Below, in pieces: positions 5,595-60,796 of a DNA stretch of 64,000 nt. The position numbers and the translations under genes are program-made. Each line of letters starts with the position of its first letter. The stretch's first letter is position 1. Under the pieces are notes generated by a model. The model was not told where the DNA came from. It was given only the letters and a program-made list of their open reading frames with translations, and ran no database searches. This stretch comes from Pelagomonas calceolata (taxonomy: Eukaryota): NCBI GenBank assembly GCA_918797485.1, contig CAKKNE010000003.1, positions 3,968,001 to 4,032,000 of the forward strand, read 5' to 3'.

Positions 5595-8500
5595 ATGGAG
5601 CGCGCCCGCCGCACGGGCACGAAGAAGCAGTCCCGCGAGGCCGTGCGAGCGGCACTGCGCGCGGCCAGAGAGGGCGGCGCCGCAAGATCCGACCAGTGGG
5701 AGGCGAAGGAGGAAAAAGATGTGTACGAACAAGTAACGGAGCAGGAGTACGCCGACCTCGTGCGGAAGCGCCGCCAGAACGAGGACTTCGTCGTCGACGA
5801 CGACGGCCTCGGCTATTTTGACGACGGCGAGGAGCACTTCGGCGAGGACGTCGCGGAAGGCCTCGAGGAGGCCGCTCCCAAACAAAGAGGTGTGGTCCAC
5901 GCGCGGTCGAAGGACGCCGTGCGGAAGGCTAGAAAGTTGAAAGAAGCGCGCGCGGAGGGCGAGGAGCGCCAGACGACGAAGATGACGCAGTTCCTCGGCG
6001 GTGATGGAGAGAAGAAGGCGCCGAAGAAGCCCGTCGCCGCCGTGAAGCAACTAGACGCCTTCGAGTCGTTAATTGATGGGTTGGGGAGCGGTGCCGTGAC
6101 TGAACGGAAGTCCGTGGACCTGGGCGGCGGCCTCGGCTTCGCGAACGAGGCGCCGAGCGGCCCCAAAGTAGCGCCGACACCTAGACGCATGACCTACGAC
6201 GAGGTCAGCCCGATGCCGTTGTGGTCGGCTGGTGTGGATCTGGAAGCATCAATTGGAGGTGGTGGTGATGACATGGGCATGGGATTTGGGATGGCCGACG
6301 ATGATGTACCGGCCGCGTTGCCGGCGGCCCTGCCTTCCACCAAGGACGCCCCTCTGCCGCTCAAGGCGACCGCGGCCCCCAAGAAGAAGAGCCGCTTCTC
6401 GAAGAACGACGTCGTGGTCGAGGCGTCGACGGCCGCTCAGACGGCCATGGCCATGGACGTCCGCGCCCGCGTCCCTTGAGTCACGCGTCGACGGCGCCGA
6501 GGGCTCGGCACGCCATCGCCGCGACGCTCACGGGTCTCAACAACACAGGTCGACAAGCCCGCCGCGACCGAGGCCGCTCCCCAATTACCGGAGCGCATGG
6601 ATGTGGATGAAAGCGCCCCTCAAGCGGACCCGAATTATGGTGGCGGGAGTACGGTCGACAAGCTCGAGGAGACGGAGTGGCTGCGGGATTCCGAGGGCAA
6701 GCACTGCTGGCTCTACTGGCTCGATTGTGTGGAACAGTCTGGCTCTGTATACTTGCTCGGGAAGATCCGACTCGAAGGGGAGCAAGATAGATATGCCTCA
6801 GCTTGCTGCGTCGTGCGGAACGTCGAGCGGAGCTTCTTCATCTTGCCTCGAGTCGATTCCGAGACCGGTAGCCGTTACGGCATGAAGGACGTCTGGGAGG
6901 AGGCGCGGTCGGAATTGGTCCCGCGGTGCGTCCCCAAGTCCGAGCCCTTCAAGTGCAAGGGCGTCAAGCGCGGCTACGCCTTCGGCGACGACGACGTGCC
7001 CCGCGACGCCGACACGGAGTACCTGAAGGTCAAATATTCGGCCAAGAATCGGGCGCCGCCGGTCTCGTTGTGTAAACGAGGCGGCCGGTGCATCGAGAAG
7101 ATCCTCGGGGCCGGTTCCACACCTCTAGAACAATTCTTGATCAAGCGCAAGCTCATGGGGCCCTGCTGGGTGCGCATCGACGCGCCGGTGCAGCGCGACT
7201 CGAAGGTCTCGTGGTGCGTTTTGGAGGTCGAAGTGTCCGACGCGAAGAAAATAACCGTCGCGCGGGACTGCCCTTACTCGGCGCCTCCTCTCGTTTGTAC
7301 GACGCTCAGTGTCAAGACTGCCGTGAACCCCAAGAGCCATCAGCACGAGATCGTCGCGGTGGCGGCGCTCACTCACAGAGGTGTTGCCGTCGACGGGGCC
7401 ACTCCCGATGGAGGAAGGGGGGAAGATGCCCGGTTGTTCCAGCATTCCACCGAGAAGCAGGAGGCCGGGAGTCGCAGATGGACCTGCGTCGCGGCGCGGC
7501 CGCTCGGTGCGGAGATCGCCGGCGCGCAAGATACACCGTTGGATCCGAAGCTGCCTAGAGATCTCCACGGCGAGCTGAAGAAACCTACGCATGGTTTTTT
7601 AGCTGATAGAGGGACCGTCACGGTCGCACCCAACGAACGGGCACTCATCTCCGTGTTATTGGCGCGCTTGCAACGGGACGACCCGGACGTGCTCTGCGGG
7701 CACAACATCCTCGGCTTCGAGCTCGACGTCCTGTTAGCGCGAGCCCTGGCCCTCAAGGTGGGCAACGCCTGGTCGAAAGTAGGGAGGCTCAAGCGCAACA
7801 AGCCGCCTCATCGGTGGAAGGCCGCGTCGGGCCGGGACACGTTCCACGCGTCGGCCACTTCGGGGAGACTGATCTGCGACACTTATTTAGCCGCCAGAGA
7901 ACACTTAAGAGGGGCCACGACCTACGCGTTGGCGGCATTGGCTCAGACGCAGCTCGGTGTGCGAGGCCGCCGATCGCTGGAGCCGCGGGAAGTAGCTCAA
8001 CTCCTAGGAAGCGGCTCCCAGAACGTCTGTGGACTCCTGAGGCACGCCGCCGAGGACTGCCGGTTAGTAGAACGACTCGCATTACGTTTGCAGGTGCTCC
8101 CGCTGTCCAAACAACTTACAGCGATCTCGGGAAACCTACTAGCGCACACGTTGAAGGGCAAGCGCGCGGAACGCATCGAGTACCTCTTGTTACATGAGTT
8201 CCACCGCATGAAGTACCTCGCGCCCGAGAAGCAGCGGTATGATGCTGATGATGACGACGACGTCCGTGACTCAGCGTCCTTACGCCATCGACGCGACTCG
8301 TGCGGGGTCTCATGATTCGTTCACCACAGGTCGACCACAACAAGAAGAAGCGCAAGAAGACGGACCCGCACAAGCGCCAGAAGGCCGCGTATTCCGGCGG
8401 ACTTGTGTTGGAACCCAAAAAAGGGTTCTACGACAGCCACGTGCTACTGTTGGACTTCGCGTCGCTCTACCCTTCCATTATTCAGGAGTACGACCTCTGC

Positions 8501-10390
8501 TTTACCACTGTTGATTGGGCCCCCGTCGCCAAGCGCATGGAGGCCCGCGCGAACGGCGAGAGCGACGCGAAGAAGGCGAGGACCGAGGACGACGAGGTCG
8601 TCGAGGAGGCCGCGGAGGAGCTGCCGCCCTTACCTGATAGAGGCGACGGGGCCAAGGGAGTCCTGCCGCGCGTGCTCAAGAACATCATCTCGAAGCGGCG
8701 CGAGGTCAAGGGCCTGCTCAAAAAGGAGAAGAACGTGAAAAAACGGGAGACGTACGAGATCCGCCAGATGGCGCTGAAACTGACGGCGAACTCCATGTAC
8801 GGCTGTCTGGGTTTTTCCCATTCTAGATTCTACGCCAAACCGCTGGCCGCGCTCGTGACGTCGTTAGGTAGAGATACTTTACAAGCTACTGCTGACGTCG
8901 CCGAGAAGGAGTTAGGCCTCGAAGTCATTTACGGCGACACGGACAGTATCATGATCAACACGAGGACCGACGACCTCGCCGTCGTCAAGGACCTCGGTCT
9001 CAAGGTGAAGAAGGCCGTCAACAAGCGCTACCGGTTACTAGAACTCGAGCTCGACGGCATCTTCAAGACGATGCTCCTCCTCAAGAAGAAGAAATATGCT
9101 GCATTAGTTGTCAATGAAGATCCCAGAACCGGGGCCGTCAGCCTACACAAAGAAACTAAAGGCCTCGACATGGTGCGCCGCGACTGGTGCCCGCTGTCGA
9201 AGCGGACCGGTGCTAGAGTACTGGATTTCTTGCTGAGCGGTGATCAAGCGGACGTGGTGGTCGCGAACGTCCACAAGGTCCTGGAGGACGTCGGCAAGGA
9301 GGCGCGGGAGGGCCGCGTGTCCGTGGCCGATTATGTAGTTACAAGAGGCCTCAACAAGCCGGTGGAAAAATATCCCGACTCCAAGGCCCAGCCGCATTTG
9401 AGGGTCGCCAAGGCCATGCTCAAGGAGGGCCGGGCGGTCAACGTCGGCGACCACATTCCGTACGTCATCTGTCTGGATGAAAACGGCAACTCGTCGAACA
9501 AGGGCGTCGCCGAGCGGACCGTGCATCCCGACCACGTCGACCCCGACACGACGGCCGTGGACAAGCGGCCCGGCATGGAGAAGGAAGGGGCTCCCGCGGT
9601 CGTCACGCCCGGCGGGCCTACACCGAAGCCCAAGGTCGACGTCGAGTGGTACCTCGCGCAGCAGATCCTGCCGCCCATCGCGCGGTTATGTGAGCCCATC
9701 GCTGGGATGAGCAAGGCGTCCATCGCCGACCGCCTCGGCCTCGACGCTCGCAAGTTCGAGCAGCACATGGCTCGAAGCCAGCAGGCGCTGGCGGAAGCCG
9801 AGGGCCGCACGGCGGCGTTCGTCCCGATGGCGGTCCAGTCAGATGAACAAAGATTTGGGGACTGCGCTCCGGTTCTGGTCGAGTGCGCGGCTTGCGGCGT
9901 GACGAAGCCGCTGACGCTGTGGCCGAAGCGTTCCGAAGATTGTGCTGATGAGGCGCCGCCTGCTCTGAAGTGCCCGTCGTGCCAAGCGCGACTATTGGGG
10001 CACAAGTCGGCCGCGTCGTGCTTCTCTCGTCTCAGTGTCGCGTTACAGTTAGCTACCCGCGGCGCTTTGAAGAGATACTACGAGGGCTGGATGGTCTGCG
10101 ACGACTCGGCTTGCGGCGCGCGGACGCGGCAGCTGTCCGGCGCGGGCCCGCGGTGCCTCCGTAGAGGTTGCCGCGGCCGCATGGTCGCCGAGGAGAGCGA
10201 GAAGCGCATCTACACGCAGCTCTGCTACCAGAAGGCTTTATTTGCTGCTGATAGAGTCGCGTGCGCCCAGAACTCGGACGAGGCCGAGGTCTGCGCGTTC
10301 CTGGAGCGCCAGGTCGCGCAGGACGTGGAAGCTTCCGCCTACAACTTCGTGCGGCCGAGCATCTTCGCGGTCTTCGGCAAGTACGAGTGA
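5595..10390 (+). CDS. POLA1: DNA polymerase alpha catalytic subunit; exons 5595-6458, 6549-8261, 8330-10390
   Basis: N-terminal [16 protein letters not shown]-family motifs [29 protein letters not shown]-terminal Zn fingers; two GT-AG introns restore one frame. Confidence 0.95.
6459..6548 (+). other. Spliceosomal intron 1 of POLA1 (90 nt, GT-AG)
   Basis: GAC|gtccgcgc...caacacag|GTC; removes an in-frame TGA and keeps frame. Confidence 0.85.
8262..8329 (+). other. Spliceosomal intron 2 of POLA1 (68 nt, GT-AG)
   Basis: GAC|gtccgtga...caccacag|GTC; resolves the frame change between ORFs 6597 and 8300. Confidence 0.9.
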
Positions 10391-10436: not shown

Positions 10437-11111
10437 TTACGACCGGCGGCGCTTGCGGACGCGCGCGGCGACACTGTTCGGGTCCGGTGCTGGCGTTTTG
10501 CGACGCTTGCGAATGCGCGCGGCGACGGTGTCCGGGTTTGGTGCGGGCGTTCTGGCGGCTCGCGGCGGCTCGCCGAGGCGCGCGTCGACGGCGTGCAACA
10601 TGAGAGTAAGAAAATATCCATGCAAACCGAAGTGCGCACGTCTCCAGGCCGGGCGGGACGTCCAGTCCCACGGGATGGCGAGGAGGCCCTCCTCCTGCGT
10701 GTCGGAGAAGAGGCGCATCTTGCAGCAGAGGCGTAGGTGCCGGGACGGGATGCCGCAGGCCCGTGCCACTTTCTCGCGATAGTAGGAGAGGTGTGGTTCG
10801 AAACCGATTTTCATCGATCCGTAGACACCCCACTCTACGTGAACTTCGGGACACATTCGCATATGGAGAGTAACGGTAGCTTCTCTCCGGATCTTATAGT
10901 CTGCCAAAGTATTATTCCTTCTCCTCGAGCTGTGCGGCAAAGATTCGGGCCCCTTATCCTCGAGCTGCTTGCCCGCGAAGATGAGTCGCTGCAGCGTGGA
11001 CCGGATGCCCGTCCGGTCTTGCACGCGATGCTTGAGCGTCAGAACCGTATCCTCCGGCTCGATGTCGATGGTGTATGTGTTCCACCCGAGTCCTCTGACG
11101 AAAATTTGCAT
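10437..11111 (-). CDS. Ubiquitin-like domain protein with basic C-terminal repeats
   Basis: MQIFVR..TYTIDIEPEDTVLTLK..QRLIFAGKQLED..TLADYKI; no diGly after the UBL domain. Confidence 0.8.
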   Translation of the reverse strand: MQIFVRGLGWNTYTIDIEPEDTVLTLKHRVQDRTGIRSTLQRLIFAGKQLEDKGPESLPHSSRRRNNTLADYKIRREATVTLHMRMCPEVHVEWGVYGSMKIGFEPHLSYYREKVARACGIPSRHLRLCCKMRLFSDTQEEGLLAIPWDWTSRPAWRRAHFGLHGYFLTLMLHAVDARLGEPPRAARTPAPNPDTVAARIRKRRKTPAPDPNSVAARVRKRRRS

Positions 11112-11324: not shown

Positions 11325-11387
11325 AAGCGCGACGCCATCGACGCGGCGACGCCGCGGTAAGATTAAGGCCCTCTTAGCCCCCCCAAA

Positions 11388-13580: not shown

Positions 13581-14221
13581 GGTGACCTGCGTGTGCGGGC
13601 ACCGTCATGCGTTCACGACGCCATCGACGCGACGGCGTGCGGCGCCGGCTCGACGGCGAGGGCGCGGGCCACGGGTCGTGCGACTCCTACCCATCGACGC
13701 GACGGCTGCGCGCGGCAGACGAGCCCTAGGAGCCCCTCTGGTGCTGCAAGCAGCTCGCAGCGATGCCGGCGCAGCGCGACAGCTGGACTGGGCAGTCAGT
13801 GACTGTCGTTATCGCGATTGAACGAGACTGATGCATGCATAGACGCCGGGGCGCGACGCGGGAGGCGGGACAACAAAAGTGGCACTCTTCAGGATCGGCG
13901 CTCGGTTGCCGCGCCGCCGGACCGCGCGCGATGGCTATAAGCGACGCGGAGAGTCTCGGAGACGGCTCCGGCGGTAGGACTACGAAACGGTAGCGCCACT
14001 AGGCCGTACGGGTGCAACCGTTGGCAGCCGCTTGGCGCATGGGAAACGGCGCAAGTGCGACGCCAAGCGGACGACACCAGACAACCTCGCGACGCGCACG
14101 GTCGCGCGCGGCGCCGCAGCAGCAGCGACTAGCGGCTAGATAGCGGCTGCCCCGGCACCCAGCACAAGGGCTGCCCCACAGACCACCGGCTGCCCCAGCA
14201 CCCATCACAGCAGCGAACAAC

Positions 14222-17200: not shown

Positions 17201-18422
17201 CTGGCGGCCCACGACGCCGTCAAGCACGCGCACCACCAGATCAAGCTGACGGCCGCGCCGGCGTCGGGCGGCAACGCCTGGGCGTTATTACCGAGGGACG
17301 TGCGCCACGCGCTTCGGGATGCTGTCCAGCAGGGCGATGCCGTAAGAAGAGCCGTCACGGACCTGCAGGCGGTTCTTGTGAGGAGATTTTTAAGATTATG
17401 CTCCCAGAAAGACGGCCATGAGCCTGACTCGGCCCTGAAGGATGCTTTAAGGGTAGTGCGCGGGGCCGCTTCCAGGGAAGTTGTGAGACGAAAGGCGCTG
17501 TGCGCGGCGTTGCATGATGCCCAGTACAAGGCCGCAGAGGGGGTACTGAAAAGAATTCGGGACCGACCACCGTCGGCTTCTGTCGCTAGAGATCTCTTCC
17601 GGCTACGAAAGAACCGGTTCGACGCTTTGAGGTTGCGAACGCCGGCGGCCAAAGCAAGGTTCGCCGCAGCGACGGCGAAGTGGAGCTCGGCTGAGTTCCG
17701 CCGGTTGCTCAGACAACTCGCGCTGCAGTTCAACGGCGACCGCGCGCGGGCTTTCCCGGGGGGTGGTGCCTCGTCGCTAGAGCCGGGTGTGTTCTACGGT
17801 TTTGAGGATGCTGCCCAAGCTCACGCCCCGGCGCCGAGAGTGGAGTGTAGGTTCGACGACGACGGCGACGACGGCGGCCACGCGAACCGGGCCGCGCTCG
17901 TGTTCCAGAGCCCCAAGGATCTCGTGAACTGCTTCGAGGCGCTCGAGAACGACGGCCGATTGGACATCGTGGCGGTGTCGAACGGCTTCCTAAACTCGCT
18001 CAAAGATGTCGCCGACGAGAACACGAAGCCGACGCTAGCTCCTGTGTGGAAATCAACGAATGAGTTAGCCGGGGACAACGTCGCATCGATGGCGTGAGGC
18101 GCCTGAAATTTGATTTCCACACAGGTCAGCTCCCCATGAGGTCGCGCTCGCCGTCGACTTGTTGCGGCAAGGTATCCTCTGCGACGTTCGACTTAGACTC
18201 AGGGCGCTGGAGCGGCCCCAGCGCCACCTCGGCTCGCTGGCATTCTTAGCGGACGCGTCGACGCACGAGGAGATCCTCCTACCCATCTGGCCCGACGTGT
18301 GCCACTACGACGGCTGGTCCCCCAACATCAGCGCGCGGGACCGCGTGCCGACGGTGGCGAAGAGCGTGGACTTCGCGCCGCGCGACTACCGGAAACCTGC
18401 TAGGTGGGGGCAGACGAACTAA
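14222..18422 (+). CDS. Large Ala/Glu-rich coiled-coil protein with degenerate RelA/SpoT-like C-terminal domain; exons 14222-18033, 18125-18422
   Basis: 1291-aa ORF joined to ORF 18159 by a TIR-bounded intron (GC donor 18034 or GT donor 18046, both frame-compatible). Confidence 0.75.
18042..18124 (+). mobile_element. Introner (non-autonomous TIR DNA transposon), short 83-bp copy
   Basis: Perfect 15-bp TIR ctgtgtggaaatcaa / ttgatttccacacag; degenerate 8-bp TSD gctagctc / gtcagctc. Confidence 0.9.
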
Positions 18423-30054: not shown

Positions 30055-33000
30055 ATGGGCCTCACCTGCGCCAAGGCCGACGTGAAGACGCAAGCACCCC
30101 TTGAGGAGACCGAGGACGCCCAGGATCGTAGTGATGAGCTCCTCGAGCGGTGGCGGTCCGGCGAGCTCGCGCACCTGCAGCGCGTGTACCGGCGCCACGC
30201 GCGGCCGCCACAAACCCTGGACAGGGATGGACTGGTAGCAGCTTTAGAGTTGGAGGACCACGCCCACACGGATACTCTGTATGAGTTGTTCGGGACCGGT
30301 TCCTGTCGCGACTTCTGTCGAACGCTGAGCTGGTGGTGTAGGGGCGACGCCTCAGAAAGGAGGAGCTTCTTGTTTTGCTGGTTCGCCATCTCATCCACAG
30401 CCGACAAGGACGCGTTGGTCGGAGGCGACGCGTCATCCGCAGAGCTCCCGAAGAACATGTTGGGTGCCCTCTGTGCTTTGCTCGAAACGCCGCCGCCCTA
30501 CCACCTCTGCGCCAAAGGTACAGTAAGTTGGCGCAAGTTCGACGGTTGGGCGCGGACGTTGTCTGACGAGCAGGTCTGGGCCGCGCTACCTTTATCCATA
30601 GTGTCCCAACCGGAGACGGAGCGGGCGCTGGTCCTCGAGCATTGGCACGAGGGTAGTCCAGGAGATGTCTACCACGTGATTCCCAGGAGGTGGTGGGACT
30701 CCTGGTGTGCTTATGTGGGCTGGTCGAATTTAACACCACCCGCACCCGGCGCACGTTTGACCGTGAAGCCCGCCGGCGCATCGTCTGGTGTAAGGCCGCG
30801 CGACGTCGACGCGTCTTCATTAGAATCCGATCGAGACGGCGCACTCAGAGCCAAGATAGATATAGCTTGCGTTCCCGTTGATGTGTGGCGGCTCTTCGAG
30901 CAGTGGTACGGCGGCGGGCCGCTCTTCCCGCGACGGTTGCAAGAGGACGGGGCGTTGGATCTGTACCCCGTCTCCGTTTTTATCGACGAGTGCGATGCGA
31001 ACGGCCGGCCGCGGAACGCCTTTACGGCTAGACGAGCGGATCGGAAGGAGACGGTACAAACTTTTGCGAGGCGCCTCTCTGATGGTAATTCGCGCCTCTA
31101 CGCGACGTCGCCGACGGGCTGGCGCCGCTTGACACCTTCATCGAGATGTGACGAGGTGCTCGAGGCTGGTAGCACGTATCTGCTCGAGACGAAGATTGAG
31201 GGAGTCTGGCCCCGCGCGTCGTCACGATACGTTGTGGGTGACAGAGTATCAGCAAGGGACCACACGGAGCGGTGGCGCAGCGGTAAAGTCATAGCGGTGT
31301 CCGAGACGCGGGGCGTCAAAGTGCGTTTCGACAGTTTTAGTAGCAAGTGGGACGAGTGGCTCACAAGCGATCGGTTGCGACGAGAGGATGTGGATATTGA
31401 CGACGTGTCGTTATCGGAGGACGAAGAAGAGAGGCCCTCTTTACTTAAGGGTGCCGTGTCTTCGCTCAGACGAGTGCTCGGCTCCAATGAGGAGGAAGAG
31501 GAGGAAACGAGACGGCTGCCGGCCACCGGTCTCGCGAACCTGGGAAATACGTGTTTCCTGAACGCGGCGGTGCAGTGCCTGTCGCACGCTCCTATCTTGC
31601 GGGCGTATTGTCTTTCTGAGATGTATGCACAAGACATCAATCGGACGTCGCGACTGGGCTCGCAGGGCCGCGTCGTCGAGGCGTTCGCCGACTTACTGAG
31701 GCAGCTCCACGCTTCACAAATTTGCGTCCGCCCCGAAGGCTTCAAGAAGGTGCTCGGAAAATGTAAGCCCCAATTTGCGGGCTCGGAGCAGCAGGACTCC
31801 CAGGAATTTCTCACCGTGCGGGCGCGGCGTCCGTCTTCGTGATCACATGAGAGTCTACGCGCCTCGCGGTCGCGTCGATGGCGTCGATGCGGACGCGATG
31901 CCTCGACGCCGTCGACGCCGTCTTCATGATCATCAGAGAGTCGATGTGTCTCGTGGATGTCCAGAGGCAGCGTCGCGATTGTATATGTTCCACGCAGGAG
32001 CTGTTAGATGTCTTACATGAGGACGTCAACCTCATCCAGGAGAAGCCCTACGTGCCGGAGCCCGAGGATGCGGACGAGGCCCGCGACGGCTTGGTGGTCG
32101 CGGCGCGCGACGCGTTACGTCGCAGTCGCTTGCGAGACAAGTCGTTAATCAGCGACCTCTTCCAGGGCCAGCTCGTCGCCAAGAAGACGTGCAAGGTCTG
32201 CGCGCGGTCGTCCGTCAAATTCGAACCGTTTACGTCTTTGTCCTTGCCGGTACTGACTCGGCGTCTGTTTCTGTGGTTTTCTGAACTTCAAGTTCGCGTC
32301 GATGGCGTCGGCGCGACGTCACGCCGCCGCGGCGCCGTCGACGGGGCCGTGCGAGCGTCTCGTGAAGAGCCACGGCAGTTTCGTGAGTGTCGTTCGACGC
32401 AGGTCCCGGCGCCCGCTTCTCGCTCCTTCGTCGTCGCTGTCCTGCGCCTCGCGAAGCACGCCAACGGCCACCCCTCGCTTACCGTCAGGGTCGAGGCGCC
32501 TCGGTTAGGGGATGTGCGGGACCTGAAGAGTGCGATCGCGGCCGAAGTCAAGCTCACTCCGGACAGTTTGACGCTGTGCGACGTGGCCAGACACCGGATC
32601 TACCGCGTCCTGGACGAGGACACGCTACCCTTGGGAGCGTTGGGCGACTTTCCGCAAGTGACGGACGCGTCGAAACGCCTACTGATTGCGTACGAGCGGC
32701 CTCAGCTCGAACTCGCGAAAACACCAAGCATAGACTTTCCCTCGTCGTTTGAAGAACTAGCCGTCGGGCAGCGCCTCGACGCTTTAGATCATAAGCGCCA
32801 GTGGTACGTCGGGACCGTGGTTGATGATACCGAGCCGTGCCGAGACAAGAATTTCGGGAAACCAGGCTACATACGTATTAGATTTGACCGCTTCTCGGCG
32901 AAGTGGGACGAGTGCTTCTGTCGTGATGACTGGCCGGCCAAACTCCAGCCGCCGTACAGCAAGTCCAAGGGCAACCGGCTGGCGGCCTTCGAGATAGGTG

Positions 33001-34133
33001 TCGTCCACCGGCGACGCGCGGCGTTTTGAGGCGTTGCGGCGCCTTCACGTTGTTGCTGGGACTCGTATCATGTTGTGGGTCGTTTCTTTGTCGAATTTGA
33101 GTGAATTCGGACCGCGTCGGGGCCGTCGCGGCGCGTCGGAGAGACCGCATTCATGAAGATGGCGTCTTCACGAGACCGCGGCGCCTCCACGCCGTCGTCG
33201 TGATCCCACGAGGGTCTCCGTGGTCCTCAGGACGCCGTCGACGCGCTGCCACGTCGGACCGCGTCGAGCGACCGCGATGCTCCGCGCAGGTCGCCGAAGA
33301 AAGGCTTATTTGGGACGCCGTTTCTCGCACGCGTCGCCTCTGATAGGTCGTGTCGCGCGCTGAAGCGGGCCGTGCTGCGACAGGCCTCTCTCTATGGTTA
33401 TGAGGGCTCCGTCTCCGTGATATCGCGGGACTCGTTGTCAGACGTTGATATTGACCTCGACGCGTCCGATTCGTGCCGCTGCCTCGCAGATAGATTTTAC
33501 ATAGCGTTGAATTGGGACTCGTCTTCTACCTACCGGGAGCCCCTCTCTTTGCAGAAATTGCCACCGGTACCGACAAGTCCGAGGCACTACGACCTCGCGT
33601 CCTGTCTACAATCATTTTCAAGAGAAGAAACGCTGTCTCAAAATGATTCGTGGCGCTGCCCGCGATGCAAGAAGTCTGTGGAGGCTACTTCCTCAATAGG
33701 TTTGTGGCGCACGCCTGATGTATTAGTTATTCATTTGAAGCGGTTCCTGTGCACCGCGCGCTGGCGAGAAAAGTTGCGGACGGACGTCTCGTTTCCGAGA
33801 CGAGGCTTGGACCTCTCCAAGTTCTTACCGGCGGATGCCTACGCGGTCTACGACCTGTTTGGCGTCATCAACCATCTCGGGTCACTGAGTGGTGGGCACT
33901 ATACCGCTCATGTCAAGGTGTCGCCCTGTTCGTCGTTCGGGGAGGAGGAGGCGTCTATTGCGTTTGAGGAGAGTGAGAGGTGGTTCCATGTCGATGATGA
34001 TTTGGTCGAAGCGGCCAAACCAGAGGACGTCGTCACGGACGGGGCCTACGTCCTGTTTTATAGAAGAAGGCGGCTTTCCGGAAGGTTGGTGGTCGGCCAC
34101 ACGGCGGTCGGGCCGGTGGCGGCGGGGGTGTAA
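30055..34133 (+). CDS. Ubiquitin-specific protease (DUSP, UBL, Tudor/MBT-like inserts, C19 catalytic domain); exons 30055-31815, 31998-32249, 32403-~33010, 33290-34133
   Basis: Cys box GLANLGNTCFLNAAVQCL, QQDSQEFLT|ELLDVLHED, His box NHLGSLSGGHYTA, AYVLFY; three introns restore the frame (third donor is 33011 GC or 33023 GT). Confidence 0.9.
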
Positions 34134-36998: not shown

Positions 36999-37753
36999 AT
37001 GCTCCGCACTGCACTACGACGCGCGCGACCCGCGAGCAGCGTTGCGCCGCGCCGCGGCATCGCCTCAGGTCAAAATTTGCTGCAGCTGTCGACCTCGGAC
37101 CTCCAGCCGGCCCGCACCTGGGACGCCGCCGAGGCCGACGGTGTGTGCGCGGCGTCCGGAAATGCGCCGTCGCCGCCGTCGCAGCTTTTTTCAGTCGAGT
37201 TACGACGGAGTCCCGCCGGACGCGCGCGCCGAGAGCACGGAGCGCGTGGAGCGCCGTCGTCGACGCGGCCGACACACACGCCGCGCTTAGGCTTCGCCGA
37301 CGCGGCCGACACGCGCCGCGCGCAGGCTTCGCCGGCACGTCCCTCCAGCAACTGTTCCAAGGGCGGAAAGTGGTGCTGTTCGCGCTGCCCGGCGCCTTTA
37401 CCGGAGTGTGCGAGAAGGGGCACGTGCCCTCGTTCGCGAAACTCGTCAATGAATTTCAACAGAAGGGCGTCGATGAAGTAGTATGTCTCGCTATAAACGA
37501 CCCCTACTGCATGAACGGCTGGGCCAAAGCGATGCAGACGAAGGGCATCTCCTTCTACGCCGACGCCGACGAGTCCTTCACGCGGGCTGTTTCCGAGACG
37601 CGCGACTGCACTGCTGATGCCCTCGGGCCGGGGGTCCGGTCGAACCGCTACGCCTGCGTCGTGGAGGACGGCGTCGTGGGCGCGTGCTTCGTGGAAGCGG
37701 GGCCGGGGGACTTGACCGTGAGTGATGGCGCGACGCTGCTGAAGGCGCTCTAA
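36999..37753 (+). CDS. Type II peroxiredoxin (PRX5-like), probably mitochondrial; exons 36999-37140, 37326-37753
   Basis: KVVLFALPGAFTGVC..GHVP, CLAINDPY, RSNRYA; Arg-rich presequence; GT-AG intron 37141-37325. Confidence 0.9.
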
Positions 37754-37942
37754 TTGATAGTATGTCTGCTTTGCTTCTTCGACGGCGTAGAACGGGGGCA
37801 GTGCGCATTGCTGCCCTGCGCGGGCGAGTCGCTCCCCGCACGCCGGCCACAGAAATGCCACATGTGAGTTTAAAGCACACACTACAAAATTACACGCGCC
37901 GCACCACCGCGTCGGCACGACCCGCGCAGAGCTCCGGAGCAA

Positions 37943-38755: not shown

Positions 38756-39267
38756 GGGTTCGTCGAGGGCCCGTTCCAGGAGCGTGTTGCGGCCCTTCTC
38801 GCCGGCGGTCCAGGCGCGGTAGGCCCGGCTCAGGAAAGACGCCAGGATTTGTTCGTAGATCGCGGGTCAGAGAGGTAAGCGCGGTGGTGGTGGACGGGCG
38901 CGGCGGCGGGCGTGCGGGACGGTCACGAATCTCAGACTGCGCAGGCTCCTGAGCGTAGCGCGCTGCAGAGGTGGCTGCGCGAGGGCTCGACCGTCACGAA
39001 TGTCTATCTCTGTCGAATTTTCTGCCGCGTAGCGCCGGGTTAAGCTTGTCCAAAAAGGCGTGCTCGCTAGTGTCTTACGAACGCTAGCTCGGTTTTTGGG
39101 GCGTGAGCGTGCTTTGAGGACGCAAGGGGGCTGAGCATTACTCTTTGACTCCAAACGACTAGCGTTCGAAAGCCGCACCGAGCTTCGGCAGCCGTGCACG
39201 CCCGGGGAGTCCCAAAAGCCTCACAGCCTCTCCTCCGCAGCGGGAGACGCCATCGACGCGCCAAGCC

Positions 39268-42226: not shown

Positions 42227-42610
42227 AGCGTCGTTGTATGACCCGTGTAAAGTCCTTGATTGTATGACTCTCTGTGCGAACAGAGAATGAGAGAGAGAGA
42301 GTCGCTTATTGAACCCACCCCCAGGTAGTACGGACCCCGAGCGCTTCGAATGAGCTAGCGGCCTGTAAGACACACTAGCCAGCAATTTGTGCTCTGCGCA
42401 AAGTCGGCACGCGCGCCCCGCGCCCCGACGCCGTCGTCTTGGCGCTTGCCGAGTAGCGTTACCGAGCCTGCCCGGCGCTCCCTCCGACCAACGCATCGAT
42501 TGGAGGCTGCCCACACTTTGTCCCACCGGCACGCCACCGCCGCGCCGCGGGCAGCGCGTCGCCTCGTAGAGCTACCAAGCGTCACAGCGGGCTGCCCCGC
42601 CACCACCGAG

Positions 42611-44800
42611 ATGGCCATCGTCGAGTACGACACGGGCTCGAAGGGCTTTGATGGGTTCCTCACCTTCGTGTCCATCCTCATCTTGGTCCTGTTATCAGGC
42701 CTGTTCAGTGGCCTCACATTGGGACTGCTCGGCTTGGACCTCAGTGAGCTCGAAATTGTGAAGGGGGGAGGGTCGGCGACGGAGCGGCGGCGCGCGGCGA
42801 AGGTCATGGGCATCCGCAAGGACGGCAATAGGTTGTTGTGTACGTTATTGCTGGGCAATGTGGCGGTCAACGCTCTCTTGTCCATTTTTCTGTCTGGTGT
42901 CACCTCTGGTTTAATAGGGTTCTGCGTGTCGACGGCGCTCATCGTGGTTTTTGGCGAAATCCTCCCGCAAGCGATCTGCTCGCGCCATGCGCTGAAGATC
43001 GGGGAACTGGCGCTACCGATCGTGAACGTGATCATGGTCGTGCTGGCGCCGGTCTCCGTGCCCCTGAAGACGGTGCTCGACAAGTTGTTAGGTGATAGCG
43101 TCGGTACCATACATACGAAGACGGAGATGATCCAGTACGTGAAGCTGCAGCACGAGCGCGGTCCGCGACGCGGCGTCGTGCATCGGTCGACGCTTCACGA
43201 GACCTCTCGTTCCGCGCGCAGGCGACCTCAACGAAGATGAGAGGACCATCATGCAAGGGGCCATGGATATGAAGGTGAAGACGGCGCGGGAGGTCATGAC
43301 GCCGCTCGAGGACGCGTATATGCTGGAGGAGTCGTGCAAATTATCGTTCGCCGTCGTCCGGGACATCTTCGACCACGGGTTTTCCCGAGTGCCGGTCTAC
43401 GCAAGGGAACGACAACATGTCGTCGGGTTATTATTTGTAAAAGATTTGATCTTCGTGGACCCGGAGGACGAGGTACCTCTGGCAGAGTACCTGCGGGTCT
43501 TCGAGCGGTCGATTGAGCTCGTCGACGCCGAGTCCAATTTGGATGACGTCCTGCGCATCTTCAAGCGCGGCCGCGGCCACCTCGCGCTCGTGCTGGGGCA
43601 GCCGCGGAAATCATCGATGGTCGAGGCCGACTGCCTGTCGCCCCTGCACGGCAGCGACAAGTCGTTCATCGTCGGGCTCGTTACGTTGGAAGCTGTGTGG
43701 AAATCAACCAGTGCGTCGGGTGCACAAGTCATTTCTCGGCGATGACGCGGCCGTGCTGGCTCCGTCAAGCAATGAGGAACCGGCATCGCCACGCCATCGA
43801 GCAGGCGTCGCGTCGATGGCGTGGAGGACGACGCGATGATTCAGCACGAACGCGCCGTGAACTTTTGATTTCCACACAGGTTGGAAGACATTATTGAGGA
43901 GATCTTAGGCGACGAGATCATCGACGAGACGGACGTGTACGTGGACGTCGACAACCATGTGAAAGTGGACGGCAGGAGCAAATTCGGTCGGCGGGCGGCG
44001 TCCTCCTGCGGGTGATTCAACGTGCGAGCGTCGCGGCGGCGGCGTGGGGGGTCGGACGCTGTCTCGGGGGAGCTCGCACGCTATCGACGCGACCCGTCGC
44101 GCATCTACGCCTCCCTAGAGTACGCCATCGACGCGACGCGTCCCGCGCAGATTTCACTAAATTGCGACGCCTGGACAGCGCCGTCGTCGACGCTACTCTG
44201 ACAGAGGCGGAGGTGAAGGCAATAGCTCAGCACCTCGGCGGCGAGCTCAAACAACCCGCCGACGCGTTAATGGCGCTGGTCCGGAGAGCGTCGGTCGTCG
44301 ATCACGAGCGCAGGACGCCCGAGGCCGAGCTCGACGCCGGCCGACCGCCGGAGCCCTCCGACGTCGTCTACGAGCGGGGCTTTCCCGCGAACTTCGCTAC
44401 TCTTGTACTATCGGGAAAGCTGTCAGTGAAAGCCGGCGTGGACGGGTTCCGCGCCGAGGCGGGGCCCTGGACCTTGTTAGGTGCGGGCGCGTTACGACAT
44501 GAAGACTTCGTGCCCGACTTTTCCGCTCACGTGGCCACGGACAGCGTCAGATGTGTCTACCTCTCGCACGCCGAGAAGTCGAACGCGCCGCGTCGTGCCC
44601 GCAAGGATGATATGAGGCGGTCGCCGTCGCGCGAACGGCGGCGCTTACGTAGAGACCGGCGCGTCGGCGACCGGCGGGGCGCGCGGTCGGCGCTCGGGCT
44701 GGGCCGCGAACTGGGGCGCCCGGCGGGGCGGCGGGACCCGTCGTCGCGGTCCCTGAGTTTTGATTCGCCGGTGCGCGGGACACCTCCTCCCGTAACGTGA
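42611..44800 (+). CDS. CNNM/DUF21-CBS metal transporter with C-terminal CNBH-like domain; exons 42611-43160, 43222-43684, 43880-43986, 44151-44800
   Basis: LSGLFSGLTLGLLGLD, LLCTLLLGNVAVN, FGEILPQA, GFSRVPVY; splicing gives GLVTLEDIIEEILGDEIIDETD. Confidence 0.93.
43693..43879 (+). mobile_element. Introner (non-autonomous TIR DNA transposon), 187 bp, forming CNNM intron 43685-43879
   Basis: Perfect 15-bp TIR ctgtgtggaaatcaa / ttgatttccacacag flanked by perfect 8-bp TSD gttggaag (43685-43692, 43880-43887). Confidence 0.95.
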
Positions 44801-44818
44801 ACACTAATAAATAATTAC

Positions 44819-45487: not shown

Positions 45488-45838
45488 CGTGGTCGGCGCC
45501 ACGGCTGCCTCGAGTTGGCTCCACTGCAAGAATTGATCGTCTGTGTGTCGGAACGCGTCGAAACCGTACGAATGAGTGCGATTAGCGCCGATAATAGGCC
45601 AATAGCCACAGCTTGCGCAATTGCTAGTGTCTTACATGACGCTAGCTGGCGCCGACGGTCGCAGTGGGTTTGGCGTGTTTTTTGGACCCGCTGACGGCTG
45701 TTGCACGCAGAGACGCTGCGCACGTCTTCTCTGAGCAGTCCTGTGGCCGCGCGCCAGTCGCCGCGCACCAGTAAGCTCGCCGCAGCCGACGCCAGCCGAC
45801 GCGACGCGCAGCACGCCCGCCGACGCGCAAGCGCAGCC

Positions 45839-46621: not shown

Positions 46622-47068
46622 GGTCGTCCTCCTGTGTAAGTGATATGACTGTGATACTTCTGTTGCGTCGTGCCGCGTGGCACTTCCGTAGAGAGCTAAC
46701 TTTAGACGTTTATAATCGATGCGTGCGCGTCGATGGCGTATGGGGGCAGCTTGCCATCATCACCTGATACATCTATGCTCGCTAGTGCCTTTACAGACCG
46801 CTAGCTGTGAAACCTGGACAACAACTGGCCTACGGCTTTATTTACGGCATTCGCCATTCATAGGGCGTAAAGTTTTGCGTGTGAGAACCACGGTCGGTCG
46901 CGTGGTCTCGTGTCGAGACGTCACAATTGTGAGACGACGGAAAGCAAAGTTCTTGTGGATCTTTACCTTAGCCTTGCTCGTACGCAACCGCAGTATCCGC
47001 GGCCGCAAAAACTTGCCTCGGGGAAGTGCAGTGACAAATTCAACCACCGGCGGTGTACGTATCATTGC

Positions 47069-47310
47069 CATGGCGAGCACGGTCCCGCCCTGCGGCCGGG
47101 GTTCGGTCCAGCCGCTCTGGGACAGCACTAGAGGTAAATACGTCGAGGTCGAATGCCCGCACGCGTACCGCGTCGAACGTTCGTGTAATGCACCACACGC
47201 CATCGACGACGCGATTCCACACAGGCAACACCATCACCCGAGCGCGCTACGGAACCGCGTCCCGATCCTGAGGGCGCTCATGGAGTATCTCCCGGGCGGC
47301 GAGAGCTTCT
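47069..47310 (+). pseudogene. Truncated 5' fragment of a second DUF938 paralog
   Basis: HHPSALRNRVPILRALMEYLPG matches HHASALRNRVPILKALLKLLP of 45839; intron-like 47159-47224; similarity stops before the SAM-binding motif. Confidence 0.7.
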
Positions 47311-48334: not shown

Positions 48335-48596
48335 GCCTTCTTGTGTGCTTAACTAGTCTTCCTATTTTTGTGTGGCTGTGAAGCTGTATGGTTTTTCTAC
48401 AGGTTAGACCGTCGTCGCTGTTTGGTTCGCGCGCTGTGTGAGTGGGCCTGAGGCTCGTAGAAAGCCCTGAACGCGCCAATTGCTTATGGTAACTCACAGT
48501 TCAAGCTCCGTGCGCAAAATTCTGTGAAAAACCCGTGTCCTCGATATGTTACGCCCTCAAACGACACACGTATTCATACGTAGCATAACTTAGGCC

Positions 48597-49949: not shown

Positions 49950-51400
49950 ATGGTCCAAAGAGATCAATGGGACACGTACTGGGGGGCGAAAAAATTAATT
50001 TTTTTTAATTCGCGAAATTGACGACGCCACCATGGCGGGCGCGTCGGTGGAATCCTGTCGATTCGTGGTCCTGAGGTCTCCGCGAGGTCGCCTAGGGTCG
50101 TATAATACATGTGCAATCGCCTACGCCGCCTACGCCGCCGCTTCTAGAGTAAGATACATCTCCCATGGTCCTTTGCGCTATACCTCTATTGGCCATGATT
50201 TGCCAAAGATTTCGATCCAGAGCTCTCTGGGGAGCCCCAAGCTCTCGCGCATGCGGCGTAGCCGACTACCCGACCCCATACCTATCCCGGAGGGAGTCCG
50301 CGAGCCGATCTGCATCCGAAAAAAGTAAATAATTTGGGCCCGATGGCGCCCCGTTCCCGTCAAAAACGTCAATTACCCGAGGGCCCCCAGTAGTCGCCGT
50401 AGCGGTCTCGTTGGACCCCATACTACCCCAGCGATAGTGGATTACAAGTATATGCCATCTACATTATAAGAAGGGTACTTTTGGCAGCCCGCGCTCGGGA
50501 CGTGAACATCTTTATCTGGACCTCGCGCAAGTCGGTCGATCATGAAATAAATGATCCTGTCCTGGTCCATGGTGATGGTACACGGGCTGATGGTCGCAGG
50601 TCCAGGTCTAACGCCAAAATTAGCGAGATAGTGGGCTCGCGGCCGAGCCGAGCCGCGCGGAGCATCGTGGGGTCTCAAGCAATGTAGTAGCCGCTCAGGC
50701 CGGTTAGCTGGCCCGTCCCACAACAAAAGCGCCTGAAAATCGAATTTATTTCACAACTCACTGGTCTGGGGCCAATTCAGTGCCCCGCGTACGCACCGTC
50801 GCCCGCGGAGAACGGGCAAGTCGGTCGATCGTGAATAGAACAACGGCTTTATGGTCCATCTGGGTAGTTGCGTCGCTGATACTCGCAGGGTTAGGATCTG
50901 AGACCGGCTACGCCTAAACGTGGGGTCGCGAAGATGACGAATCGTGCCGCTCTAACGGGTCATCTAAAGTAGTTAGATAAGTGTTCAATCGGCCTAGATG
51001 GACTCTACCCCCAACAAACGGAAGGAAATGAACATAAACGCGAGAGTTGTCTAGTAAAATTCTTTTCCCGCCCTCCGAGCGCGGGCCGTCGGCTCCGGTT
51101 CCGTCGATTATGCATGAAAACTGGGCTGGAGTTGATATGATGTATCATTTGGACGGTAGAAGGCGCCGTCAATCGCTGGTGTATTTTGGCGAGCCGCAAG
51201 ACCTAGTGATCTAGCGTATCGACACACTAGGAATCCGTATATATATATATATATGGATATATACTAGATGTATACATGTGTACAGGCCTAGGCGGATGGC
51301 TTTTGAAATTAGACCTCTCCGACTGACCCCCGAATAGTGAAGTTCAGAGCTTAATTCCCGCTCTGGCGTCGACGGCGTAGGGACTATGACACCGAATTAA
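49950..51400. other. Noncoding lower-GC island with a degenerate 289-bp-offset repeat and (TA)n tract
   Basis: No credible ORF; visibly more A/T than flanks; repeated blocks at 50527/50816; TA microsatellite at ~51238-51253. Confidence 0.6.
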
Positions 51401-51403
51401 AAC

Positions 51404-57163: not shown

Positions 57164-59311
57164 CTACGACCAGATGCGGAACGTGCAGTCCGTCGACGTC
57201 GACACCAGTAACGTATCGGCGGGGTCGAAGCAGACCCCCTGGACGGCATCTTCATGTCCTCTACCACTCCATAGCACGCTCGACAGGTCGTCCGTCGAGT
57301 AGCCGTGCACGAGACCATCATCCCCAGCACACACGATCCTCGTCCCAGATCGGTCGAAGCAGACCTTGTTGACTGGGTGTGTCGACACGTGGATCGTGCC
57401 GATCTCCGTGACCGTGCGCACGTCCCAGAGCTTGACCACGCCGTCCGCGTCGCAACTGGCAACCACGTCGCCGCGCGCGTTGCAGGCGACGCCGTTGCAC
57501 GCGTTCGTGTGTCCATAAAAAGTCTGCACGCATAATGCCGACCGGGCGTCCCAGATCGACACGGTCTTGTCGCCGGAGGCCGTGCAGATGTTGTTCGAGA
57601 AGGGCTGCCAGGCGCAGGCGTTCACGCTGTCGACGTGGCCCCGCAGCGTCTGCCGACATCTCAGGGAGGACAGGTCCCACAATCTAGTCGTATGGTCCAT
57701 CGAGCACGACGCCAAAAAGTCACCGGTATGGTGGAACGCGCAGTCCCAGACCGCTTGCGTGTGGTCCGAGAAGGTGTGGGCGCAGGCGGCACCTGCGGGG
57801 ACGCGAACGCGTGACCGTCGCGGTCGCGGCGACGGGTTCAGTACACTGAGTCAGCACCGGCAAAATCCCAAATTTTGACCGTTCTATCTCCAGAAGCCGT
57901 CGCAAGATGACTGCCAGCAGGATGGAAATCAACCCCAGAAATCCAATCTCTATGACCTTCGCCGGACATGACCAGGTCGCAGTTCGGGACGGACCAGAGC
58001 TTCCAGGTGGCATCATCAGAAACAGTGGCCTGCGTGAGACCGACGTCGTCGCGACACCGCCTCCGTTCACTCACGCGACGCGTAGGCTCTCATGCGGCCG
58101 CGTCGACGGCGTCGAGGCGCCACGGCATCGCGACGACGCCATCGACGCGAATCAGAAAAGTTGGGAAACGAAAGGTCGGAAACGGACGCCGCGTCCGCAC
58201 CAGGATCGGTTTATGAGGGTGAAAAGCTGCAGCAGATACGGCGTTGACGTGGCCCTTGAAGGTCCTTCTCAACTGATACCGCTCGATGCCCGGCGGGTCG
58301 AAGGTTAAGGACGCGTAGGGGTTCGGCACCGAATCCCGAGGTGGCAGCTTCGAATCCGCGCCGCGCTTCGGCCGCGGCGGCTTCGGCGTGGCTGGGGCCT
58401 TCGTGGCCGCGGCCTTCTCGGCCTGGAGCTGCTGCACTTGCGCTTCTAGTGTGTGTACTCTAGCCTTGATCCGATCCCGCTCGAGCCGCGTGAGCATCTT
58501 CTCCTTCATGGCCACCTCGTACTTCTTCTGGAGGTCCTTGAGGGTCGGCTCGTACGACAGGTAGTGCTTCCGCAACCGCTGGAGGTCCGTCGTAAGCTTC
58601 GCTTTTTCCTGAACGACCTGCGGCGGTTTCGCGTGATGTGGGCGTCTGTTTGCGTCGCGAGGCGTCTCTATGTGATCGTCTCCACGAGAGAAGATGCATG
58701 GTGGTCTTCTTTCCGATTTTGGGCGGGATTTGAGCGATTCGAGGACGCCGCGATCGCACGCGCCGGTGGTGCATGCGATGGAAGTCGCGCTCCTTGCGGA
58801 ACTTGTCCCAGGTGCCCTGGGCTTTTTCGGTTATGATGCGCATCTTGTCGAGCTGCTGTTGTAAGGCTACTACTCTCTCATCGAGGTCCTGGTTCCGGAC
58901 ATATATGTCGGGAACCGTGTCCGTGTACACTTCGGCCAGCTTCCCCTTCTGCTGGAGGTCGTACCACTCGCTGTTGAAGTTATCTAGGGTCCTCGACATG
59001 CCCACCTTGATCAGGAAGTTGCGTATAAAATCGTCGACCACTTCAGGTCTGACTTGAGTTAACGTCGGTTTGGCCGCCGGTGTTCCTATGTCCCTTTGGG
59101 AGGCTACCGTGCTTCCGGCTCTTGATTTTTCGTCTAATCTTTGTACACTGGCAAGAGCGGCAGCGAAGTCTTCATCATCGTCGTCGTCGTCGTCCTCGTC
59201 GTCCGGCGCTTCGACGGCATCATAATCAAATTCGTCGGCCTCATCATCACTTATCTCATACTGTTCCACGACCTCGACCTCGTTCTGGGCGTCGAGGGCG
59301 GCCTCGTCCAT
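57164..59311 (-). CDS. SPAG16: Flagellar central-pair WD40 protein PF20/SPAG16; exons 59311-58760, 58617-58201, 58029-57858, 57792-57164
   Basis: RPEVVDDFIRNFL, KERDFHRMHHRR|VVQEK, HYLSYEPTL, WD40 repeats; three GT-AG introns restore the frame. Confidence 0.88.
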
Positions 59312-59761: not shown

Positions 59762-60545
59762 ATGCGTTGCTCGTTCATCGCATTAGCTGCGCTTATTACG
59801 AGCGTAAACGGCCTATCCGCGACGCGCCGCCGCCTGCCCGTATCGCGCGAAGAGCCCGCGACGCGCGCTATCAAGAAGAACCTCGCCCGCGCCTTCGCGG
59901 TTCCACTCGTCGCCGGCGCTGCGTCTCGTGTAGAGCCAGTCCGCAAGCTCATGGCAGGATTCGACCGCATCCGCGTCGGCCTCGTCGCCGGCACCGTCGG
60001 CGCGGCCATTCTAGGAGGCTGCTACTTCATCTTCTCGTTCTGCGTCATGGACGCCTTGAATCAGCAAGACCCACAGACGGCCATCAATACGATGAACAGC
60101 ATCAACGTCGTCATCGTGAACCCCAAGTTCATCGCAGCATTTATGGGCACGCCGCTCATATGCTGCTGGCTGGTCGCCGAGGCCCTGGCGGTGGGAGTAG
60201 GCTCGTCGACGGACGTCGCGCTCATGCTCGGCCCGGCGTCCTTGCCGGGATCGCGCCGACGGCGTCGCCCTCACGCCGTCGACGCGACGCAGGTTCGGCG
60301 GCGCGCTCACGCTCATCGTCGGCGAGTTCCTCGAGACGATCATATGTCACATCCCGAAGAACGACGCCCTCGCGGCGCACAAAAAGGGCGGAAACGACGC
60401 CGAGGTCTGGGCGCGCTACTACACGTCCTGGACGGCCTGGAACCACGTGCGGATGGTCGCGTCCCTCGCGACGGTGGTCCAATTCTCGCTCGCGCTCTTC
60501 TACCGCGGGGCACGCCTCGGAGGCGGCTATGGCGGCCTGCCGTAA
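59762..60545 (+). CDS. DUF1772/anthrone oxygenase-like membrane protein with presequence; exons 59762-~60225, 60293-60545
   Basis: GCYFIFSFCVMDAL..MNSINV; after the intron HIPKNDALA..WARY..WTAWNHVR; donor is GC 60226 or GT 60238. Confidence 0.85.
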
Positions 60546-60796
60546 GTGTAGTAAGGATTGTGTACATGTGCTTTTCTCCTCCTCTAACATGTACCGTCAT
60601 AACACATTCCGTCGACGGACGATGTACACGCGTGTTCTTTCGAAATGCTAGAGTGTGTCGACACGCTAGCATCGACTCGGCGCGCCAAAAAGCTGCCTAA
60701 AAAGCTCGTACGAACCTCGTACGCGCGCGAGGTCTCGGCATCCACCCCGCACGCCATCGCCGCGCAGCTCTACGGCAGTAAAACAGAGCAGCAGCC

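What the first reader, a model, noticed from the sequence alone, without database searches (positions are those of the whole stretch)
6484..60764. Internal CGCCATCGACGCG motif in both orientations in most introns and some intergenic sites
Seen (exact or 1-2 mismatches) in introns at 6484/6511, 8283, 13619, 18082, 31871, 32295, 33233, 43792/43809, 44079/44123, 47198, 58099/58137 and 60274, and outside introns at 11333, 39248, 46726 and 60752. Often paired in opposite orientations, able to form a hairpin. Orientation independence argues against a branch-point role and for a DNA-level site (transposase subterminal site, methylation/nucleosome-linker signal or protein binding site). It also lies inside both intact introners, linking otherwise dissimilar introns to one origin.
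Basis: partly seen in the sequence, partly recalled or inferred. Interest (0 to 1): 0.7.

Follow-up and report, generated by a model that had tools for sequence, protein, structure and literature searches.

The report
Protected DNA word in algal introns
A 14-letter DNA word sits inside the small jumping elements that made many introns of this marine alga, is usually spared when those elements lose pieces, and also stands in older introns that have no element ends, so it is likely a protein-binding site that helps keep such introns tolerable.

Summary
The motif is real: 19 hits (≤1 mismatch) against 0.65 expected, 14 of them in 2.3 kb of introns, and it beats Markov backgrounds up to order 6. 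The window is a pelagophyte, likely Pelagomonas calceolata. The word, ACGCC(A/G)TCGACGCG, is the conserved internal box of two young 203-nt introner (MITE) families with the same inverted ends and 8-bp target duplications; 57 of 77 copies keep it. These elements insert either way round, which accounts for both orientations. In family A, deletions spare the box (7 of 48 touch it, 21 expected) and shared substitutions avoid it. Single-copy substitutions are not clearly depleted. The box also stands in introns without transposon ends and in 5' UTRs. The Aureococcus family with the same ends and length lacks it (0 of 8). It is not a branch point, is not needed for splicing, and shows no CG-linker signature. 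Best reading: a DNA site for a host protein (0.4); transposase site 0.25. No binder was identified. A single origin for all introns is not shown.

The parts
6484..6523 (.). Box pair (reverse 6484, forward 6511) in intron 6459-6548 of DNA polymerase alpha
   Evidence: intron from open spliced frame
8282..8297 (+). Single perfect box in intron 8262-8329 of DNA polymerase alpha
   Evidence: frame change between tblastn pieces; no stable fold
10581..10593 (-).
11333..11345 (+). Single perfect box, intergenic, just after the GTAAGACACTAGC motif at 11312
13619..13631 (+). Perfect box upstream of a minus-strand gene, in a likely 5' UTR intron whose donor is uncertain; second copy with 2 mismatches at 13689
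   Evidence: no RNA
18034..18132 (+). Short family-B introner: element 18042-18124 (83 nt), target duplication 18034-18041 / 18125-18132 (6 of 8 match), GC donor, reverse box at 18082
   Evidence: spliced frame open
31816..31997 (+). Intron of older family D with reverse box 31871 and forward box 31907 (2 mismatches), forming a hairpin
   Evidence: RNA joint
32250..32402 (+). Intron of family D with reverse box 32295 and forward box 32333 (2 mismatches)
   Evidence: RNA joint
33011..33289 (+). GC-AG intron of family D with forward box 33233
   Evidence: RNA joint
37141..37325 (+). Intron with only a 2-mismatch box (37255); spliced
   Evidence: (144 and 115 joint reads)
39248..39260 (+). Single perfect box in the 5' UTR, 7 nt before the ATG at 39268 of the PTPA gene
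   Evidence: ungapped contig 39108-40261 of run X5
43161..43221 (+). Intron without a box (none at ≤2 mismatches), spliced
   Evidence: (14 and 31 joint reads)
43685..43887 (+). Family-A introner: element 43693-43879 (187 nt), perfect 8-bp duplication 43685-43692 / 43880-43887, half-site 43791-43800, full reverse box 43809-43822
   Evidence: RNA joint 43684>43880 with 8 letters fitting both sides
43987..44150 (+). Intron with two direct forward boxes (44079, 44123) and no stable fold
   Evidence: RNA joint
46726..46738 (-). Single perfect box, intergenic, 105 nt after the stop of the DUF938 gene
47134..47224 (+). Likely decayed reversed introner (end remnant, box with 2 mismatches at 47198) in an almost unexpressed stretch; intron status uncertain
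   Evidence: sequence; depth near zero
58030..58200 (-). Intron of family D in a WD40 gene with box pair 58099/58137 forming a 17-bp stem
   Evidence: open spliced frame
60226..60292 (+). GC-AG intron with box pair 60252 (2 mismatches) / 60274; flanks match family A over 43 nt at 81%
   Evidence: open spliced frame
60752..60764 (+). Box with 1 mismatch, 32 nt before the ATG at 60797
61925..61942 (-). Isolated half-site plus flank, 18 of 18 identical to family B, after a stop codon

Best explanation
The word is the conserved internal box of this alga's intron-making mini-transposons and is likely a binding site on DNA for a host protein, which would explain why it is kept after the element's ends are lost. 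Shown: two 203-nt families carry it, insert in both directions, and in family A lose sequence inward from about 32 nt inside either end while sparing the box. Inferred: copies that lose the whole box are removed by selection, or a bound protein blocks the deletion. Also inferred: the 9-nt core ACGCC(A/G)TCG is the recognised part, and the sites in older introns and 5' UTRs are kept by the same factor. The likely role is to organise chromatin or transcription over introns whose own splice signals are minimal. No binder was identified.
For: Box in 57 of 77 A/B elements, including 17 of 30 that are 110 nt or shorter. Deletions: 7 of 48 touch it against 21 under uniform placement; left-anchored 3 of 34 (p=8e-4); right-anchored 4 of 12 (p=4e-5). 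40 of 48 are anchored ~32 nt from an end. Most breakpoints are unique and short copies are no more diverged than full ones (0.047 vs 0.054), so most are probably one-off events rather than spreading sub-families. Outside young elements the box is the only part of the element that is common: 61-67 hits against 0-6 for most internal 13-mers. Its edges are sharp, and among 37 hits no mismatch falls in seven core positions. The core, over both copies in family A, shows fewer rare substitutions: single-copy 0.8% vs 1.9% (p=0.026), ≤2 copies 1.1% vs 3.1% (p=6e-4). The Aureococcus family has the same ends and length but no box (0 of 8), and its host DNA has 0 full boxes in 40 kb. Direct pairs and singles are common, so a hairpin is not required.
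Against: Over the whole 14-mer, single-copy substitutions are not depleted (1.6% vs 1.8%, p=0.75); the overall deficit (2.5% vs 6.3%) comes from variants shared by 3 or more copies. That fits constraint on spreading lineages better than selection after insertion. The core test was defined, and the reverse core alone is not significant (p=0.25 and 0.07). 20 of 77 elements and 5 of 18 window introns lack the box, and one boxless intron is spliced. Some of the 61 outside hits lie in older A/B copies with worn ends: 6 of 9 sites with the element's flank show end remnants. The mask removes good end sequences by design, so the end-versus-box count is biased. Coding DNA does not avoid the word. The deletion nulls are simple uniform models. 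No chromatin, binding or orthologous-intron data were available.
Confidence: 0.4

Rival explanations
1. The box is an internal transposase-binding site needed for the element to move. It is common in the genome only because many introner families carried it, and copies decay neutrally once inserted.
For: Shared variants avoid it (0 of 14 columns vs 22 of 99, p=0.07; column permutation P=0.006) while single-copy ones do not. Two to four copies in inverted layout. 8-bp duplications and short inverted ends as in hAT elements, whose transposases bind subterminal repeats (passages of PMC3143072 and PMC3260210).
Against: Elements with the same ends and length in Aureococcus lack it. Family A has none in its first 110 nt. 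Family D introns and UTR singles have it without end repeats or target duplications. Most short copies have unique breakpoints. No autonomous element was found.
Confidence: 0.25
2. The box acts in RNA, as a hairpin arm or splicing enhancer that helps remove introns with weak GT/GC donors.
For: Strong intron enrichment. Reverse-then-forward pairs are three times background with variable loops, and several fold into long stems (z -2.0 to -2.9 for 31860, 43780, 58090, 60226).
Against: The core is not palindromic yet is kept in both senses (16 of 24 and 7 of 12). Distance to the acceptor runs from 19 to 127 nt. Introns at 8262 and 43987 do not fold better than shuffles. Short A copies often keep the full box and drop its partner arm. 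A boxless intron is spliced. It occurs in exonic UTR and intergenic DNA.
Confidence: 0.2
3. No function. The box survives through repair bias: hairpin-templated correction of the stem, deletions halting at the stem, or conversion among abundant copies.
For: The two cores in family A pair in a stem of about 12 bp, and both are low in substitutions. Eleven of 34 left-anchored deletions end in positions 113-131, within the hairpin.
Against: 17 of 61 outside boxes have no partner within 70 nt. Mismatches concentrate in the right half of the word, not at its CG sites. 14 bp is short for gene conversion (general knowledge).
Confidence: 0.12
4. The word is a by-product of CG-dense methylated nucleosome linkers, as reported for Aureococcus.
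For: Four CG pairs in 13 nt. CG transitions are mildly raised in family A (4.7% vs 3.1%, p=0.012). Linker methylation by DNMT5 in Aureococcus is cited in PMC9998398 (passage).
Against: Exceeds order-6 Markov expectation. No CG period near 200 bp and flat CG density round the box. Absent from the Aureococcus loci examined.
Confidence: 0.03

Closest known systems
Introner elements of Aureococcus anophagefferens (Huff, Zilberman and Roy 2016; not read, known from recall and from passages in PMC10228655, PMC7789003 and the Gozashti preprint)
   Same: Terminal inverted repeats, target duplication, insertion in both orientations. The family found here in an Aureococcus locus has the same ends and 203-nt length.
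   Different: The Aureococcus copies examined lack the box (0 of 8). No internal box appears in the passages seen.
Pelagomonas calceolata introner elements (Guerin et al. 2022, PMC9481584: main-text passages and Supplementary Note 3 read; Gozashti et al. 2022, PMC9860276: passages and supplementary table rows)
   Same: Intron length peak near 210 bp, 956 putative elements, GT and GC donors, conserved inverted ends.
   Different: Neither source, in the parts seen, describes an internal motif, deletions anchored 32 nt from the ends, or the box in other introns and UTRs. Gozashti lists TSD and TIR as '?' for one Pelagomonas MAG.
Subterminal transposase-binding repeats of hAT elements (Ac AAACGG, Herves CG/AATTCAT; passages of PMC3260210, PMC3143072)
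   Same: Short internal word in elements with 8-bp duplications, retained in non-autonomous derivatives.
   Different: Those are 6-8 nt and repeated near both ends. This box is 14 nt, in one or two full copies, off-centre, missing from a sister family with the same ends, and common outside elements.

Membership tests
Pelagophyte TIR introner (MITE), for elements at 18042 and 43693 | Terminal inverted repeats | tested here: met
   15-nt inverted ends in both, and in 87 distinct sites
Pelagophyte TIR introner (MITE), for elements at 18042 and 43693 | Target-site duplication supplying the donor, element end supplying AG | tested here: met
   8 of 8 at 43685 with RNA joint; 6 of 8 at 18034
Pelagophyte TIR introner (MITE), for elements at 18042 and 43693 | Multi-copy family, about 200 nt, both orientations, presence/absence between strains | tested here: met
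   203-nt full length; 24 forward, 12 reverse; L222 has an element where the window's gene at 14222 has none
Pelagophyte TIR introner (MITE), for elements at 18042 and 43693 | Insertion into nucleosome linkers | not testable with these tools
   No MNase data; no CG period seen
Pelagophyte TIR introner (MITE), for family D and other box-bearing introns | Inverted ends and target duplication | tested here: not met
   First 8 intron bases match the 8 bases after AG at only 1-5 positions in family D; no A/B ends at their borders; internal homology of 73-87% among copies
hAT subterminal transposase site | Repeated near both element ends | tested here: not met
   Family A: half-site at 115-124 and box at 133-146 of 203, none in the first 110 nt
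hAT subterminal transposase site | Shared by elements with the same terminal repeats | tested here: not met
   0 of 8 family C elements; different species, so its transposase may differ
hAT subterminal transposase site | Present in the autonomous element, bound by its transposase, needed for excision | not testable with these tools
   No autonomous element found in the fetched loci; no genome held
Spliceosomal branch site | One strand only, near-fixed distance from the acceptor | tested here: not met
   7 forward and 7 reverse; 19-127 nt from the acceptor
DNMT5 methylated-linker CG signature | CG enrichment with nucleosome periodicity | tested here: not met
   No peak near 200 bp in 218 kb, flat CG round 61 boxes; power limited
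DNMT5 methylated-linker CG signature | Methylation of the site | not testable with these tools
   No bisulfite data
Known structured RNA family | Rfam match | tested here: not met
   0 matches at gathering threshold in the window

The most novel reading that the evidence does not exclude
A Pelagomonas DNA-binding protein marks introns from the DNA side. Introners picked up its site because it lets a new insertion with only a GT/GC dinucleotide as donor be spliced during transcription, and the genome's intron code (this box plus the GCGGCGTCC word at +9 of older introns) was built by transposons.
Probability: 0.15. Interest if true: 0.8.

Novelty: new variant of a known kind. Interest (0 to 1): 0.5.

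Why it matters
Introners are a main known source of new introns, but what lets a host tolerate them after insertion is open. Here the element has a measurable internal constraint that its same-ended Aureococcus relative lacks, and the same word is the second most over-represented non-microsatellite word in 283 kb outside young elements. It gives a defined 14-bp bait for a pull-down and a defined mutation for a reporter in a cultured alga with chromosome-scale genomes. If the binder is the transposase, it would identify the missing autonomous partner. If it is a host factor, it would be a case of transposon-spread DNA sites serving intron maintenance.

Tried and rejected
No whole genome is held and the metagenome records are not searchable as genomes, so orthologous old introns could not be compared. 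RNA support covers only 29500-49499; introns elsewhere rest on reading frames. Viral scans gave chance matches: L012, with two end-like words 2 kb apart, is a phage with no duplication or transposase. L256 is a bacterial contig with an element end fragment at its tip. Splitting family A by age suggested the box decays in older copies, but an odd/even-column check showed the age ranking was noise (0.068 vs 0.067), so that argument was dropped. A search for elements by ends alone gave 11 further sites, one of them chimeric; 6 had the box at ≤1 mismatch, too few to decide. Codon shuffling showed no avoidance in coding DNA. The idea that GCGGCGTCC is the left end of family D after an 8-bp duplication was rejected because the duplication is absent. 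Rows dropped: 16 of 121 metagenome loci were left out as bacterial, unassigned or overlapping; L144 and L253 were left out of the A/B alignments; elements over 330 nt were left out. The family B reference rests on 2 near-full copies, so B was not used for substitution statistics. The ≤3-mismatch mask hid part of the 58030 intron. Resemblances to the YY1 site and to bacterial REP hairpins are recalled, untested and not used.
Full report
Setting. The window is 63% GC and about 79% coding by my annotation. The best named relative of its DNA polymerase alpha is from Aureococcus anophagefferens at 67% identity. Three of four proteins looked up lie on a 5.39-Mb contig, which fits the 4-6 Mb chromosomes reported for Pelagomonas calceolata (passage). 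The species name is my inference. No genome was held.

Observation. The 13-mer occurs 19 times at ≤1 mismatch against 0.65 in shuffles. Fourteen hits are in 2.26 kb of introns, 4 in 11.4 kb of other non-coding DNA and 1 in 50.4 kb of coding DNA. Markov backgrounds of order 1-6 trained on non-coding DNA do not explain it (18 seen, at most 4.5 expected), nor on independent loci (38 seen, 10.8 expected). RNA reads confirm seven introns between 29500 and 49499. Nine others give open spliced frames and two are uncertain. Eleven of 18 carry the box at ≤1 mismatch, 19-127 nt from the acceptor, equally in both senses. The boxless intron at 43161 is spliced.

The elements. Two introns are intact introners with 15-nt inverted ends and 8-bp duplications that supply the donor. 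This gave 87 distinct sites including the window's two. Full length is 203 nt. Families A (53) and B (24) lie in loci of about 63% GC and carry the box: A has a half-site plus one full copy, B has two of each. 57 of 77 keep it at ≤1 mismatch. Family C (8 copies, 66-74% GC loci) has the same ends and length but no box; one of its loci encodes a protein identical to an A. anophagefferens kinase. A coding-strand model called 24 elements forward, 12 reverse and 39 unclear of 75. All 12 reverse calls have a duplication ending in AC or GC, as a co-opted donor requires. The box is kept in 16 of 24 and 7 of 12.

Constraint in family A. Forty of 48 deletions are anchored about 32 nt inside one end. Only 7 touch the box against 21 under uniform placement. 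Left-anchored ones reach it 3 times in 34, right-anchored ones 4 times in 12. Short copies are as young as full ones and most breakpoints are unique. Substitutions are 2.5% in the box and 6.3% elsewhere, but single-copy substitutions are 1.6% and 1.8%. The deficit therefore comes from shared variants, which counts against strong selection on single bases after insertion. Restricting to the 9-nt core in both copies, a definition taken afterwards, single-copy changes are 0.8% vs 1.9% (p=0.026); the reverse core alone is not significant.

Outside the young elements. In 283 kb with young elements masked, the box has 61-67 near matches, while most internal 13-mers of A and B have 0-6 and GC-rich ones sit near expectation. 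End sequences have 2-5, but the mask biases that number down. The consensus is A-CGCC(A/G)TCGACGCG-AC with sharp edges; in 37 hits no mismatch falls in seven core positions. Some sites are older A/B copies with worn ends (6 of 9 with the element's flank). Others belong to a separate, older family D (window introns 31816, 32250, 33011, 58030; loci L156, L211, L220), 73-87% alike over 60-80 nt, with no end repeats or duplications, where the box often stands as a reverse-forward hairpin. Not every D copy has an intact box at the same place. Singles, direct pairs and inverted pairs all occur, and the introns at 8262 and 43987 do not fold better than shuffles. The site at 39248 is in an ungapped contig of a run guessed to be RNA, 7 nt before the start codon. 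No CG periodicity or local CG excess was seen, and coding DNA does not avoid the word.

Mechanism. Shown: the box is the part of these elements that deletions spare and that recurs across otherwise unalignable families. Inferred: a protein reads it on DNA. I favour a host factor (0.4) because same-ended Aureococcus elements move without it and because it stands in introns and UTRs with no element ends. A transposase site (0.25) is favoured by the shared-versus-single-copy pattern. An RNA role (0.2), repair bias (0.12) and a methylated-linker by-product (0.03) follow. None was tested directly.

Prior work. Introners with inverted ends are described for both genera: PMC9481584 (passages, Supplementary Note 3; one picture-only supplement unreadable, figures not seen), PMC9860276 and its preprint (passages and table rows; the SI Appendix was not held), PMC10228655 and PMC7789003 (passages). 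Huff et al. 2016 was not read and may show internal logos. The Sibbald preprint was seen in passages only, without supplements. A full-text search for the word, its complement and the end repeat gave two unrelated papers. Topic searches listed nothing on such a box; most listed papers were seen as listings only, and subscription journals are mostly absent. The scan's own notes hold nothing on this genome or look-alike DNA and only analogous cases in other organisms.

Verdict. A real, constrained internal box of a known kind of element, not found in print, with an unidentified binder. New variant of a known kind; interest 0.5.

Noticed in passing
window introns, e.g. 31824-31832, 37149-37157, 43995-44003, 58184-58192 (-), 58743-58751 (-): GCGGCGTCC (≤2 mismatches) starts at +8 to +10 of the donor in 13 of 14 introns that are not A/B introners (background 4% per position elsewhere in the same introns). 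It is strand-specific and bases +3 to +8 vary freely, so it is a likely extended 5' splice signal. Also seen after GT in loci L185, L191, L211, L213.
   Followed up: partly
window 11312, 27990, 28006, 29881, 39066, 45623, 49886, 55004, 62056 and others: GTAAG(A/G)CACTAGC, usually preceded by GCTAGC, sits in intergenic DNA between gene starts (12 hits at ≤2 mismatches vs 1.4 expected). It is the top over-represented word in 283 kb and absent from 40 kb of family C (Aureococcus-type) loci. Likely a promoter element.
   Followed up: partly
family A elements (L137-L250, window 43693-43879): 40 of 48 internal deletions start or end about 32 nt inside an element end, symmetrically, suggesting a protein footprint or nucleosome edge.
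   Followed up: partly
L155:1029-1121 and L156 near 3540-3680: Orthologous genes (94-98% alike) carry different introners, one B and one A, a few bases apart: likely parallel insertion. L162 has two elements where L197 has none; L222 has one where the window's gene at 14222 has none.
   Followed up: partly
window 43693-43880: Thousands of polyA reads from other copies of the element map here on both strands, so many copies are present in RNA unspliced or in UTRs.
   Followed up: no
window about 49950-51400: A 1.4-kb low-GC stretch without a long ORF, 85% alike to L137:1-784 and bounded by a 17-nt imperfect inverted repeat that resembles the box (50120-50136, 51365-51381); possibly another mobile element.
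   Followed up: partly
window 46842-47360: Almost unexpressed stretch with a short piece resembling the start of the neighbouring DUF938 gene at 45839; likely a gene fragment.
   Followed up: no
window 34175-34378: A repeated sequence at the 3' ends of two convergent genes, 94% alike to L178:4707-4884, attracting reads from other loci.
   Followed up: no
window 18436-26037 (-): A 2,500-residue protein with tandem repeats, a long Pro-Thr tract, a likely membrane helix and a C-terminal kinase-like part, read from the sequence only.
   Followed up: no
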